NCBI GenBank assembly: GCA_905178155.1
Contig: CAJINV010000005.1
Location: forward strand, 3,757,697-3,821,696
DNA from: Amoebophrya sp. A120
Lineage: Eukaryota; Protista; Dinoflagellata
DNA: 64,000 nt
Reading direction: 5' to 3'
In this document: positions 20,998-41,000 of the stretch, one piece after another
How the letters are laid out: every line of letters begins with the position of its first letter
Numbering within the stretch: the stretch's first letter is position 1
Made by a program: the position numbers and the translations under genes
Notes under the pieces: generated by a model
The model's input: only the letters and a program-made list of their open reading frames with translations
What the model was told of the DNA's origin: nothing
Databases searched by the model: none

Positions 20998-23900
20998 CTA
21001 TTCGAACACTTCCTCCCATGCAAAGCTGATGTCCGGCTCCTTTGCATCCGCTGCGGGGTCGTCCGGCACAACGTCACTACTGTAGTATTCCTTGTCCGGA
21101 ATCAGTGGCGCGGGCAGTTGCCGGCCCATCAGCTGGTCGAAGGAAAAGTTTTCGAAAAAGGAGTGCTCTTTCACGTCCCAGAACCCGCGCAGCGTGCAGC
21201 CGATCCGCGACTCCGGGGTGCGGCACAGGAGCCGTTTTATCAGCTCCATCGCCGGGATGTCCGTGACGTAGTCGGGGAAATGTAGTCTCCCCGTGAGAAT
21301 CTCCTTAAACACCACTAGCTGGTCGTCCCCCGCGTCGTTTCCGAAGGGCAGGGGTCCGCACACGAACTCGTAGAGGCAAACGCCCATGGACCACACGTCC
21401 GCGTTCTGGTTGTAACCGTATGCTGAGTAGAAGTGTCCCCATCCCAGAGCTGTCATGCTAAACAAAATGCGACACACTTTGCCCCCCCATTGTACCATGG
21501 CCGCAGGAGATGGCTTGACACGCAGGGCGGGTGGGTCAGAGCTGTCATGCAGATCTGCATGCCAAAAAAGTTTCTCATGCTGACCTCAATGAGAGTCATT
21601 TTCTAATCCTGTTTTGGAATTTGTGATGCTAGGATCGGCATGATGTGCTACATCTGTGATGCTGCTGAACTAGCGAAACAGGGTCACACCATGACGGCAA
21701 ACCTGTCATGCGAAACAGCGAAAGCTGGTTGATTTGTCTAGCGGATTTCCCATCTTGACTCTGGTGTGGCGACATTTTTACTCAGGATAAACCGCGACCC
21801 AGAATCACCTCCGGCGCCATGTAGTGCGGCGTGCCCACCAGGGTGAAAGCTTTACCTGTGGAGGAATAGTAGTTTATGAATTACTTACTAACTTACTTTA
21901 TTTGAGGGTTGTGCTGATCTAGCTTTTCGATGGTGCTCAACATACTTAATTCCTTTCTGCGTCTGCCTTGGCTTGAGCAGAATATCGACATAGAGCAGCT
22001 ACACGGAAGAAGAACAAAACCCTGTTATTAATAAAAGGCTGTACCTGCATCCCCGAGTTTCTTCGCGCACCCGAAGTCGATCAGCTTTATGTACCCGGAA
22101 TTGTCCAGTAGCACGTTTTCCGGCTTCAAATCCCGGTACGCAATCGATTTTTCGTGCAAATAATCTATCGCCAGACAGATCGATCCGAGGTAAAACTGCG
22201 CTTGTTCCCGCGTCAGCAAATCCAGCTCCCGAATCGCGTCATACAGCTCCCCGCCGGTCACGAGTTCGGTCAAAAAGTACAAAAATTTGCTGTCCTTGAA
22301 CGTCCTGACTAAGTGGACGATAAAAGGATGGTCATTTTCCGCGAGAATCTCGCGCTCCATCCGGATGGACTGTTCCTGCTTCTTTTCCAGCACAACCGAC
22401 TTCCGGACGCATTTCAGCGCGTAGCGGACGTTTGTTGACTTGTCGAAAACGAGCTTCACCGTGCCGAACGTCCCTCGCCCGACGCATTTCTCCGTGGTTA
22501 GGTTCTCCTTCTTCAAAAACGTATTTTGCAACTGAATCCTGTACTGCAGGTGCGACAGCATGTTGGTTTTGTTGGTGGTCTTTGTCCCGCCTGTCGTGTC
22601 TTCTGCTGTCGCTTGTTGTGCAAGAGTTGTTGGCCCACCAGCACCTCCTGAACTACTACCCACGCCCGCTGTCCCGCCCGAGCTGCTGGAAGTGCTTGGG
22701 GTTGCGCCGAATTCCCTCAGGAATTCGGACTTGTCCAGCGTCCACAAGACCGTGTTGGATTGGTTCACGACGATGGAAGCGGACCTGGGCTCCTCGAACA
22801 TCAAGGCGCGCTCCCCGAAGTAATCGGATTTCCCCATCGTCCGGAGCACCCGCCCGTCGTCGAGTTGCGCTTTCACTTCGCCGGTCTTAATGATGTAAAA
22901 TTTGTCGCCCACATCGCCCTGCTTGAACACGAAATCCCCTTGGTCCATCGGGGGAAGTTCTTTGAACGCGCGCACCATCGACTCGGTTTGGGCGGAGGAG
23001 AGATACCTGAGGCGCCGTAAAGGATCATCAGCAAGAGAAACTGAGGCGAAAGTAATGCCACACTTGCTCCAATCCAATAAAAGACGAGAGCAGTAACCAC
23101 ATTATTAATCGGTCCTGTTAATAGCGCCTTCTATTACATTTGATTTTACAAATCGAATATAGTGTTTCCTTTTCGAATTCAACCCGACCCAAATTATCCC
23201 GCTCACCTGAAGATCGTTACTTTCTTCAGAGTCGCTAGCCTGTTGTTGAAATCGGCGTCGCCGACACCTAGCCTCGCAAACGCGTCGGCACTGAACGCCC
23301 CTAGTAAGGCTTTTCCACTTGCCGAGTTTTTCACCAGCGTGCTGAAGGGTAGGCTCGCGTCAAGGAGATTCCGTTTTCCTGTGGCATGTAGGAGTATGGA
23401 TAATAGAACTTGAACATTGAATTGAGTTAAATTTGCAAAATGATTTCTTAGCAGGCGGAGACCGTGCTATCCCTATCGGCATCTGCATGGTGGGCGGTTC
23501 ATCATCCCGCGCATCAAGATCAAAAGACACAGCCGCACCCACTATACCATGACTCATCCCGGCGTCCAGCTTCTCCACGACCACCTCCTCCCCATGATTT
23601 CTTTCATCCCCAACTAATTCCAGCTGGCCGCTAACCGCGCTAAGAACGATGAAAAAGCGGCAGAGAGGGAAAAGCTTCTTCACGTCGGTCACTGCGCCGT
23701 TTCCCTCCAGATTGATCAAGTGGACAAAGTTTGACAAATCTCGCAGGTGCGCTCTTGATTCCTGCACGTGCACGCCCAAATCGTTTTTCAAAGCCGTTTC
23801 CAACACGTGGAAAAAGTGCAACTCTTGCAGCGCCGTCGCGAACTTCGAGGATTGCTGCGGTACTGAAGATGTTGCCCCGCCGCCAACCACCCTGGGTGAA

Positions 23901-38036: not shown

Positions 38037-41000
38037 TCACTCAACACCCCCTCCAGCACCAACTCGAATCTCACACTTCCTCACCACCTCCTTTCCAAAC
38101 ACATCCGCAAGTCTCCGTGGCCCGTCACTCGGCTCGTCGCTGCCGTTGAAGTCCAGACTTATCAAACTCAGGTCTGCATCGGCGTTTCGGAGGAAGTAAA
38201 TCCGTTTTTCGGGAGCATCAAGTTCCACCAAAGCTCTCTCCTGACCAGTCCGCACGCGATCCGTTTCCTGTTCTTCCCCTGTTCTTCCAACCAGCAGCAC
38301 ACTCTCCTCCAACAACAACCCCGCTTGAAACACTTGTCGCAAGTACTGCACGACTTTGCTGCTTTCCGCGGCCGCGCTGGAGAGGTACTCCTGCAAATCC
38401 GCGCTGGTGATGCTTGAATTTGTCTTCTCCTCCCCTTCCGCGCCCGAGACGACGCTTTTGGGCGTACTGGCCCCACCAGCGGATGAAGTCCTCGCGGTCT
38501 TCACTTTGTTCTTCGAAGCCGCTATCTCTTTCAAAATCCCCTGCAAAAACGGCGCGCGTTCGGCGGTGGACGTTGAGGAGCGCTGTGTAGTACTAGCACC
38601 ACAATCCACTTCGGTAGAAAACACCACTAGCATCTCCTGCAAGAACGACAAATCGTCCATGGTTTCCGGGTCCCGCCCGAGCCACCACATGCTGTAATCC
38701 TCGTTCCAATAGATTAAGTTGTCTTCCGACCGATACACCGGCTTCTCCGCCCACATCTCGTTCTCCTCCTGTCGGTAAACGGCGTTGAAGCACGGGAAAT
38801 TGCGGATCTCCACAGCACTTTGCAACAATGCCGTAGTACCAGAAGACGACGACTTCGGGTGGCTCTGCAGTTCGAATTCCTCCTCGATCCTCAAGGATGG
38901 ATTTCTCATGCTGCTGATCGCGTTCGACACTGCAGTTGCGCCACTGTTCACCGCCCCGTGCAACAGTTCATTTGTCGTCGCGGAGCTTGTACTGTCTCGA
39001 TTGGCAGCAGCTCCTTCCGTGAGTAAACCTAAAGACACACTCTGCACACCATTCGGGATCGTTCGGTCAAGGTCGTTGGAGCCGATCCTGTTGGTGCTAC
39101 TGGTCGAGGATGAACCGCTCTTGTCTACAACTTCACCGTTCCTGTACTGCTCCGCAGGCCGGTGAATCAAAGGCGGCTTGGTCGAAGCGGATGATCTTAC
39201 TCTGTTCATCGCAGCACTTTCTTTCGAGTAAGCCGGATGCGTTGAGGAGTCGAAGGCTGTGGAAGAGGCTATCAACTGCAAACATGTCTCGGTCTGGGAG
39301 ATTCCGAAATTTGTCATGCTGTTTTTCCAAGATCCACCAAATCTAGAAAGCAGTGCCTAGCATCACAGGTTCTGCAGCCCCCTTGCGATGCCTATTCTGC
39401 ATGAGAAATGGCGTCTCAGCATGGCCACAAATGGACAGCTTTTGCAAGTCATGCAACACAGTTTTTTGTATGATTCGCAACATGCATCACAAGTTCATCA
39501 CATCCTTCCAGACCCAGACATATTTGCATTTGATAGCGGCGGAGATCGTGCGATGTTGGGAAGTAGTGCCTGAGCTGATCGTGCGAGCACCGCCGGAACC
39601 TTGTATTTGGTCATCCTCGCCGCCGGACCTCAATCGGTAAAACGGGTCCGGATCGGCGTAGTAAATCTCGTCCGGGCTGTTCCGCTTCGCTGGTAACGCC
39701 GGGTTGAGCAGCTTACTGCCCGACGGACTCTCTAGCAGGCGTTGCGTTTCTTTCACCTCGAGTCGCTTTATTGATACTGAGGGTCTGGTGGAGGAGGTGT
39801 TTGGCGATGCATTTCTCGCTTTGGCTTTATTCCCGCCGGATGCGCTAGAGGAAGTAGCGGCATTCGCATTTCGCGACGAAGATGAAACTTTGCTAACATA
39901 GTTCATCGACGAACTACCACCATCGTTCGACGTTTTCTTCACGGCCACACTCGATCGCGCGTTGCGGATTCCCCTACTGGACGCACTCTGACTACCCCCC
40001 GGAAGATAAGGGCCACCGCCGCGGCCGCTTTGACTCCCGCTGCTTTCCGGCGAACTTAAAAGCTGCGGTAAGGGGGAAACGGGCGGGGAGGCCAGTTGCA
40101 CGAAAGAGGTCGAGTTCGTTTTCCGAAGTAGTAACTTTTCATCGTCAAACTCCCGCCCTGCGTACGCCGGCTCTTGCAACTCCTCTCTCGATTTTTTCTT
40201 CTGGAACTGCATCAACTTCGCCACTCCGTGCCGGCTGTGATTCCGGTTACTATTTTGGTTGCTCTGATGTGAAGTTGACCCTTTTGACCCGGCGTCGCTG
40301 GTGAATGTCGAGCTTCCTGGCACCGGGCGCCCGACGTGGTCAAATTCCAACTCTTCGGGATCATCCCGGGCGGAGAAGGAGTTGATGCTCGAAATCGGCG
40401 ACGCTTTGTTCATGTCCGAGAACCGAAAACCGCCGGAAGAGTTATTTAGTAACCCGCTTGTATTTTTCGCGAATAGAAACTCCGTGTCCGGGTTACTATT
40501 GTTCATCACACCGCCGGAAAAAGACTTCAAGTGGTACTCCTCATCCGCAACAGAGGTTGACTGCGGCGTGGCGAGAAGTTTGGTGTTGCCAAACGGAATG
40601 TAGGTCGAGCTGTCCTTGCTGGTCTTCGGCAAACCTGGTTTCAAAGAGGCGGAGGCTGAGGCTGATCTGGTCGAAGACTCGGCCGGCGGCGAGGGATCGG
40701 GAACAACTCTTTTTTGGCGTAGTTTTTGGTGATCCTGGTTCAGTAAATTCGCTGCCTCTGTTGCGGAATGTGGTCGTGCTGGCGCGTCGTGGTCTAAAGA
40801 TATGCAACTCCCGAGGAGCTCCTCTTCCAGCGAGTCTTCCTCTTCCAGGTAGTCGGCGTGGAAATAGGCGTTGTGATTCTGATGTGCACTGGATGGCCGT
40901 CCCGAAGCGGCGGGCGGTAGATCCTGATAGCATTTTTTTTCTCATAGTCATATCATATCGCATGATAAAAGACAGTGGGTATGTTGCAAGTGCTTCGTTT

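What the first reader, a model, noticed from the sequence alone, without database searches (positions are those of the whole stretch)
21419..39535. Internal motif grammar shared across different TIR families (GCATGACA/GCATCACA arrays and a central hairpin)
Elements with unrelated termini carry several copies of GCATGACA/TGTCATGC and AGCATCACA/TGTGATGC in both directions. Families A and B also share an internal palindrome: TTTCTCAT-N11-ATGAGAAA at 29873-29899, TTCTCAT-N10-ATGAGAA at 28794-28817, and related copies near 21574-21593 and 31197-31222. Inference: these are protein-binding sites (transposase or splicing factor), or they make the whole element fold into one long rod that brings the two direct repeats together.
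Basis: partly seen in the sequence, partly recalled or inferred. Interest (0 to 1): 0.7.

Follow-up and report, generated by a model that had tools for sequence, protein, structure and literature searches.

The report
Shared spacing code inside jumping introns
Jumping introns of a parasitic marine protist carry, despite very different ends, the same short internal word in pairs 31-33 letters apart, which likely acts as a docking site on DNA for the still-unknown protein that moves them; the proposed hairpin and rod are not general.

Summary
The motifs are real: 38 of 46 exact GCATNACA sites in the window lie in 13 elements covering 3.3 kb. The elements are Amoebophrya-type introners (TAT...ATA ends, 5-bp target duplication), a known class. 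In 346 elements from a related assembly, 341 carry a motif variant (consensus GCATNACARAT). The 'central hairpin' is in 13 of 346, lacks covariation, and its arms are motif variants. No rod is conserved beyond the ends. Elements sit in both orientations, the motif shows no strand bias, is strongly conserved in transposing lineages and decays after insertion, while the TAT tips do not. Best reading: double-stranded DNA binding sites for one shared mobilising protein (0.6). No transposase was found, and post-insertion decay is only 0.63 (0.36-1.02) of the interior rate, so a splicing role is not excluded. I found the motif neither in the papers searched nor in this scan's notes.

The parts
21419..21789 (.). 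Family-B introner in the cGMP-dependent kinase gene; TSD AACCG; motif pairs at 21543/21573, 21622/21655, 21704/21735
   Evidence: removing it plus one TSD restores the kinase activation segment
27309..27541 (.). Group-F introner; TSD TGGAT/CGGAT; motif pair 27358/27390 (32 bp)
   Evidence: a probable RNA contig skips 27305-27542
28599..28878 (.). Family-B introner, opposite orientation to 21419; TSD TCGTG; pairs 28646/28677, 28727/28760, 28809/28839
   Evidence: a probable RNA contig piece ends at 28593 and continues elsewhere
28794..28817 (.).
28909..29106 (.). Degraded TIR element, one weak motif site, TSD not intact
29754..30001 (.). Family-A introner; TSD AATCG; pair 29788/29819 (31 bp)
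29873..29899 (.).
30247..30453 (.). Group-C introner; TSD TCCCG; pair 30383/30414 (31 bp)
30523..30813 (.). Degraded group-C-like element with 3 motif sites
31094..31346 (.). Family-A introner; TSD ACCAG/ACCAC; pair 31268/31299 (31 bp)
31649..31903 (.). Family-A introner, opposite orientation to 31094; its outer pair is broken by a 3-nt insertion
33452..33663 (.). Group-C introner with a mutated left tip and no TSD, next to a retrotransposon fragment; pair 33484/33515 (31 bp)
   Evidence: skip 33448-33664 inferred from contig coordinates
39270..39535 (.). Family-A introner; TSD GAGGC/GCGGC; pair 39453/39484 (31 bp)
   Evidence: a probable RNA contig skips 39264-39534
4077..4238 (.). Group-J introner outside the finding's range; TSD GCCTG/ACCTG; pair 4125/4156 (31 bp)
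17150..17443 (.). Diverged TIR element with one motif site; its removal leaves one open frame on the minus strand

Best explanation
The elements are short non-coding Amoebophrya-type introners with TAT...ATA ends and 5-bp target duplications, and across their families they carry the motif GCATNACARAT in same-direction pairs 31-33 bp apart, which likely are binding sites on double-stranded DNA for one shared mobilising protein (a transposase or its host co-factor). Shown: the ends, the duplication, the motif, the spacing, insertion in either orientation, constraint on the motif in transposing lineages and its partial decay after insertion. Inferred: 31-33 bp is three turns of B-DNA, so two protein units would sit on one face of the helix; the first site usually starts 33-34 or 41-45 bp from the end, one turn apart, which would keep the bound protein in phase with the cut site; families can then drift in their terminal repeats while using the same machine. 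Inferred, separately: splicing reads the tips, not the motif. The intron would start one base before TAT (N|TAT, so T is intron base +2) and end four bases past the far tip, removing element plus 5 nt. The hairpin would be a by-product of two motif variants facing each other.
For: Spacing: 290 of 340 elements, 10 of 11 groups at or above 50% of members; per-group random-position nulls are far lower (e.g. 161 of 171 vs mean 36.7) and no spacing window away from 31-33 reaches more than 1 group; a fixed regular expression gives the same top three spacings, 31, 32, 33. Spacers look unrelated between families and interiors align across families only over about 20-80 nt in most pairs, except groups 5/7/8, merged as C. 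Constraint: substitutions at paired motif columns are 0.21 of the other-interior rate on internal branches and 0.48 on terminal branches; spacers 1.06 and 1.00; inner TIR 0.29 and 0.54 (15 subfamilies). No RNA-strand signal: 139 sense vs 160 antisense copies of 299; motif decay 5.58% vs 5.89% by strand, p=0.48. With age (TSD mismatches, 435 copies) the motif decays by 3.1 points (CI 1.7-4.5), as does the inner TIR (2.6), while the tips do not (-0.4). 5-bp TSD without selecting for it: 95 of 117, none of 6 bp or more. Splice register -1/+4 is the only one common to three junctions and all nine predominant A120 splice-site classes in Table S4 of PMC7789003 begin NT. Precedent: helically phased transposase sites and a host-factor site in Tn7-like ends (PMC10201428 passages); a TIR introner with integrase-like ORFs in Amoebophrya (PMC12130899 passages).
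Against: No transposase or autonomous element in the window (24 ORFs) or in the loci (70 of 322 ORFs scanned; 4 long TIR pairs, the one inspected being low-complexity). Farhat et al. report no transposase in A120 and reject general transposase mobilisation (PMC7789003 section 16). Post-insertion decay is incomplete: ratio to interior 0.63 (0.36-1.02); a second estimate gave 0.24 (-0.11 to 0.66); across all divergence bins the motif stays at about half the interior divergence. These are confounded by unsampled lineage history but allow a lasting host role. Spacer length changes are barely rarer than elsewhere (49 of 554 vs 542 of 4808, p=0.086). Group H lacks the pair (1 of 9). Some pairs lie mid-element, over 100 bp from both ends. 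Only one spacing is favoured, not a 10.5-bp series. The groups may share ancestry, so they are not 10 independent origins. All comparison loci come from one assembly and were picked by a family-A pattern.
Confidence: 0.6

Rival explanations
1. The motif is an RNA-level splicing signal read in either orientation (a protein or small RNA that replaces the missing U1 step), and the spacing reflects a two-domain RNA binder.
For: Motif decay after insertion may be slower than neutral (0.63, CI 0.36-1.02; 0.24; about half). Single motif copies persist in degraded intron-like stretches at 29508, 41002 and 55432. U1 snRNA was not detected in these genomes (PMC7789003 passages).
Against: GCAUGACA and UGUCAUGC are different RNA words, yet there is no orientation bias and no strand difference in decay. 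Family B has exact sites in one direction only (0 of 18 both) and occurs both ways (4/9 and 5/6). The only strand-asymmetric position found is the first T of the donor-side tip (2 of 295 vs 14 of 296, p=0.004, 1 of 28 tests).
Confidence: 0.15
2. The pairs bind a host DNA-binding or chromatin protein that benefits the host or marks the element after insertion (for example helping co-transcriptional recognition), rather than the transposition machine.
For: Explains the strand symmetry and fixed spacing equally well, the mid-element pairs and the residual constraint; no transposase found.
Against: Constraint is strongest on internal branches, where lineages were copying (0.21 vs 0.48), and tracks the inner TIR; no 31-33 bp pair occurs outside elements in 60.7 kb of the window.
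Confidence: 0.13
3. The pairs are a functionless relic of a 31-33 bp tandem subterminal repeat in a common ancestor of all families.
For: Termini share TAT[CG] and an A run, so common descent is likely; groups 5, 7 and 8 are homologous.
Against: Motif columns are about five times more conserved than the spacer on internal branches (0.21 vs 1.06), and spacers have lost similarity while motif and distance stayed.
Confidence: 0.07
4. The motifs and hairpin make the whole element fold into one long RNA rod that brings the direct repeats together.
For: Whole elements fold better than shuffles (z -2.5 to -13.5) and interiors mildly so (mean z -2.0, SD 1.9, 55 elements on both strands); TIRs do close the ends.
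Against: No consensus rod or hairpin and near-zero covariation; TIR positions 4-10 match between the two ends little better than permuted ends (4.80 vs 4.73 of 7, p=0.06); family B sites cannot pair with each other; hairpin in 13 of 346; element 33452 has no direct repeat yet is inferred to splice in register.
Confidence: 0.05

Closest known systems
Amoebophrya introner elements, A120 type (Farhat et al. 2021, PMC7789003; abstract, passages, section 16, supplement legends and Table S4 rows seen)
   Same: TAT start, about seven variable bases, then an A run; short direct repeat; about 240 nt; non-canonical NT splice donors; many repeated families.
   Different: The text I saw describes only the terminal inverted and direct repeats, no internal motif or spacing rule, and argues against transposase mobilisation. 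The supplementary figures (S19, S25) are pictures that I could not see and might show internal logos.
Tn7-family and CAST transposon ends with arrays of TnsB sites (PMC10201428, passages seen)
   Same: Several internal copies of one short site, asymmetric between ends, spacing tied to the DNA helix; a host factor can bind between sites.
   Different: TG termini rather than TAT; first site next to the 8-bp end rather than 33 bp or more inside; cognate transposase known; not spliced. A works-like analogy, not membership.
IS3EU/GingerRoot, IS481EU and Ginger2 integrase-like DNA transposons (PMC10045372 and PMC6839031, passages seen)
   Same: TA..TA or TNT..AYA termini; TSD in the 4-6 bp range (Ginger2 4-5 bp).
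   Different: IS3EU/GingerRoot usually make 6-bp TSDs and GingerRoot has 100-150 bp TIRs; here 5 bp and about 25-40 bp. No transposase in hand to place them.
Amoebophrya A120 introner family 38 (Gozashti et al. 2025, PMC12130899; passages, SI legends, Dataset S2 searched)
   Same: TIR-flanked introner in the same genus with integrase-like ORFs: a candidate source of the missing enzyme.

Membership tests
Amoebophrya introner elements (A120 type) | Terminal inverted repeat starting TAT, about 7 variable bases, then 3 or more A | tested here: met
   A frequency 0.69-0.90 at positions 11-15, family-balanced; TAT at both tips in 101 of 117 unselected family-A pairs; groups F, G, H have a weaker A run
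Amoebophrya introner elements (A120 type) | 3-5 nt direct repeat at the borders | tested here: met
   95 of 117 exact 5-bp duplications
Amoebophrya introner elements (A120 type) | Removed from the RNA at non-canonical sites | tested here: met
   Contigs of run X3 (RNA is the tool's guess) skip 238 and 271 nt = element + 5 and also skip a canonical intron; third junction inferred; raw RNA runs X9 and X10 did not cover the genes
Amoebophrya introner elements (A120 type) | Repeated families in an Amoebophrya genome | tested here: met
   346 elements in 157 loci; the only protein hit for a window ORF is named Amoebophrya sp., 53% identity
Non-autonomous TIR DNA transposons (MITEs) | TIRs, fixed-length TSD, no coding capacity, either orientation | tested here: met
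Non-autonomous TIR DNA transposons (MITEs) | Cognate autonomous element or transposase | tested here: inconclusive
   None in 64 kb of window and about 0.6 Mb of loci, with 70 of 322 ORFs scanned; whole genome not held
Non-autonomous TIR DNA transposons (MITEs) | Empty sites or excision footprints in related strains | not tested
   No orthologous locus from another strain was obtained (one search shows only element hits)
IS3EU/GingerRoot | TA..TA termini | tested here: met
   definition from PMC10045372
IS3EU/GingerRoot | 6-bp TSD | tested here: not met
   0 of 117 with 6 bp or more
IS3EU/GingerRoot | IS3-like DDE transposase | not testable with these tools
   No autonomous copy in hand
Tn7-type ends (works-like only) | Array of internal binding sites with constrained spacing | tested here: met
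   Sequence pattern only; binding itself is not shown
Tn7-type ends (works-like only) | TG terminal dinucleotide with first site next to the 8-bp end | tested here: not met
   TAT tips; median first site 33-48 bp inside

The most novel reading that the evidence does not exclude
Tens of thousands of Amoebophrya introners of many terminal-repeat families are all mobilised by one undiscovered integrase-like transposase or domesticated host protein that reads a helically phased internal code (GCATNACARAT, 31-33 bp apart) rather than family-specific ends, while a U1-independent splicing step reads only the N|TAT tip and cuts at a fixed distance from the far tip: two separable codes in one element.
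Probability: 0.3. Interest if true: 0.8.

Novelty: new variant of a known kind. Interest (0 to 1): 0.55.

Why it matters
How Amoebophrya introners spread and how they are spliced are both stated as open in the genome paper, which rejected transposase mobilisation partly because no family-specific signal or enzyme was found. A motif pair shared by nearly all families gives a concrete bait for finding the protein and a signature for finding the autonomous element. It also separates the likely mobility signal (interior, decays after insertion) from the likely splice signal (tips, kept), which makes both questions testable in sequence data that already exist.

Tried and rejected
No whole genome is held for the window and the loci's records could not be searched by handle, so no genome-wide transposase search was done. 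No RNA holder was listed on record; raw RNA runs X9 and X10 laid only 10 and 170 reads, on element pieces, and say nothing on splicing here. A second read lay gave no result, so junctions at 21419, 29754, 30247, 31094 and 31649 rest on open-frame restoration only. Family-A end pattern in viral contigs: 0. Motif pair in viral contigs: 8 loci, none with a TIR/TSD pair, treated as chance. End-plus-pair pattern in prokaryote genomes: 0. Rfam: 0 matches in 21000-40000. A first non-circular TSD test failed through a pattern error and was redone; the TSD-length count is circular and not used. The longest TIR pair (L023:505-1608) holds a low-complexity frame without Pfam match. The protein atlas did not answer. 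An AG near the 3' end is no commoner than my rough chance estimate (80 of 163). CpG decay does not explain the motif/interior contrast. In one search one of 32 rows (L001) was given in the wrong orientation; the conclusion does not rest on it. Rows dropped before counts: 386 candidates to 380 (overlaps, duplicates) to 346 (at least 17 of 25 end matches, at most 500 nt), then 340 in 11 groups (6 singletons left out); 7 candidates arose in 602,560 shuffled bases. Literature: searches (GCATGACA, TGTCATGC, transposon, 2 of 3 terms) found 0 papers. Figures and subscription journals are not covered, and the supplement of the Roy et al. preprint was not looked at.
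Full report
Observation. The motifs and the four hairpin-like stretches are at the stated coordinates. In 21419-39535 there are 33 sites against 1.4 expected (max 6 in 200 Markov controls). Of 46 exact GCATNACA sites in the 64-kb window, 38 lie in 13 elements covering 3,270 bp: 11.6 per kb against 0.13 per kb outside.

What the elements are. They are 160-370 bp inserts with TAT...ATA ends and, where intact, a 5-bp duplication, in minus-strand genes such as a cGMP-dependent kinase. 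Removing element plus one duplication leaves an open minus-strand frame at all 10 elements tested, and at 21419 restores the kinase activation segment. Contigs of run X3, probably RNA, skip 238 nt at 27309 and 271 nt at 39270, each the element plus 5. A DNA-like run piles summed depth in the thousands to hundreds of thousands on element-bearing bins against about 44 elsewhere; the tool warns this is no copy number. The anatomy matches the A120-type introners of Farhat et al., and the only protein hit for a window ORF is from Amoebophrya. The class is therefore known.

Comparison set. A family-A end pattern fetched 157 loci (716 kb with overlaps) from one related assembly. Without using the motif I called 386 candidates (7 in shuffled DNA) and kept 346. 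They fall into 19 end clusters; 13 have two or more members and were merged to 11 groups holding 340 elements. A test that did not select for it gave a 5-bp duplication in 95 of 117 family-A pairs and none longer.

One motif, not two plus a hairpin. GCATGACA is the top shared 8-mer, in at least half the members of 10 of 12 clusters. The family-balanced consensus is GCATNACARAT, with GCAA and GAGA variants; 341 of 346 elements carry a variant, 14-fold over a background that still holds undetected elements. The hairpin arms are the GCATGAGA variant and its complement. The hairpin occurs in 13 of 346. At the homologous place most family-A relatives lack the right arm, and in family B the right arm changes without the left following.

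The spacing rule. Same-direction sites are 31-33 bp apart far more often than at any other distance. This holds in 290 of 340 elements and 10 of 11 groups; group H is the exception (1 of 9). A fixed regular expression ranks 31, 32 and 33 first. The 20-22 bases between the sites look unrelated between families, and interiors share little else across groups. First sites cluster at 33-34 and 41-45 bp from the end, but some pairs lie mid-element. Opposed pairs at 17 and 35 bp recur in groups C, E and J. Members of a group share spacing by descent, so the independent units are about ten groups, which may themselves be related.

Is it selected, and when? On trees of 15 subfamilies, paired motif columns change at 0.21 of the interior rate on internal branches and 0.48 on terminal branches; spacers at 1.06 and 1.00; inner TIR at 0.29 and 0.54. 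Using TSD mismatches as a clock in 435 copies, the motif decays at 0.63 (0.36-1.02) of the interior rate and the inner TIR at 0.53, while the TAT tips do not decay (copies needed both ends aligned, which favours intact tips somewhat). Against full release: another estimator gave 0.24 (-0.11 to 0.66), the motif stays at about half the interior divergence in all bins, and spacer length is only slightly more stable than elsewhere (p=0.086).

DNA or RNA? With transcript direction inferred from a codon model, 139 copies are sense and 160 antisense, and motif decay is equal on the two strands (p=0.48; 251 vs 272 sites in 163 of 346 elements). Family B has exact sites in one direction only (0 of 18 both ways) yet sits both ways in genes, as 21419 and 28599 do in the window. 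A strand-specific RNA word is hard to reconcile with this. The fixed three-turn distance fits double-stranded DNA (inference; 10.5 bp per turn is recalled).

The rod. Whole elements fold well because of their ends; interiors give z -0.3 to -4.4 in the 9 window elements and a mean of -2.0 in 55 others, and rod-like pairs exceed half in 1 of 9. Consensus folds of 16 family-B and 32 family-A sequences show the terminal stem, no hairpin and near-zero covariation. Positions 4-10 of the two ends match about as well as permuted ends (p=0.06), positions 11-30 slightly better, which my end-match filter may cause.

Splice register (side result). The only register common to 27309, 39270 and 33452 starts one base before TAT and ends four bases past the far tip. 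The third junction is inferred from 156 unlisted contig bases and two canonical introns; that element has no direct repeat left. The register puts T at intron position +2. All nine predominant A120 classes in Table S4 begin NT, and the donor-side first T is the one position more conserved than its acceptor-side twin (2 of 295 vs 14 of 296, p=0.004 before correction for 28 tests).

Comparison and verdict. It works like the phased transposase-site arrays of Tn7-type ends but is not a member. The ends resemble IS3EU/GingerRoot, but the 6-bp TSD test fails. No transposase was found, though an integrase-like TIR introner is reported in this genus. The elements are known; the internal paired motif was not found in the papers I could search or in this scan's notes. 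Papers seen: PMC7789003 (abstract, passages, section 16, supplement legends and rows), PMC12130899 (passages, SI legends, Dataset S2 search), PMC9860276, PMC10045372, PMC6839031, PMC10201428, PMC12005148 and bioRxiv 2020.10.14.339549 (passages). Unseen supplementary figures of PMC7789003 and datasets of PMC12130899 may bear on the novelty claim. Verdict: real, better structured than first read, a new variant of a known kind; interest 0.55.

Noticed in passing
window 32141-33447 (-): A 5'-truncated non-LTR retrotransposon-like fragment (53% to a reverse-transcriptase protein of Amoebophrya) abuts introner 33452, has apparently removed its TSD, is transcribed as the last exon and ends the host frame after 13 codons.
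   Followed up: partly
window 26884-31980 and 33665-35135 (-): Neighbouring genes for proteins with repeated Cys/Trp-rich modules (W-C-Y-V-D-x-x-C), no Pfam match in the exons scanned; they hold 9 of the 13 elements, so insertions cluster here.
   Followed up: no
window 33751-33986 and 34058-34321 (-): Two canonical introns begin GTAT, the same +2..+4 letters as the introner donor N|TAT; the tip may mimic a native donor.
   Followed up: no
window 690, 29508, 41002, 55432: Single intact GCATGACA sites in intron-like stretches without clear TIRs; possibly very old introners.
   Followed up: no
L023:505-1608: A 1.1-kb element with 23 of 25 matching ends, exact TSD, motif pairs near the left end only and a GC-rich low-complexity interior.
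   Followed up: partly
L031:632-1465, L062:3862-4492, L061:571-1051: Long family-A elements, possibly with nested insertions.
   Followed up: no
element ends, positions 4-10, L001-L157: These positions vary faster than the interior (1.3-fold) and often mismatch between the two ends, between a fixed TAT[CG] and the A run.
   Followed up: partly
window 28628-28681 and 31643-31680: Raw RNA reads of runs X9 and X10 carry 90-99% alike family-A and family-B pieces with other flanks, so these families occur in other samples, in transcribed or unspliced form.
   Followed up: no
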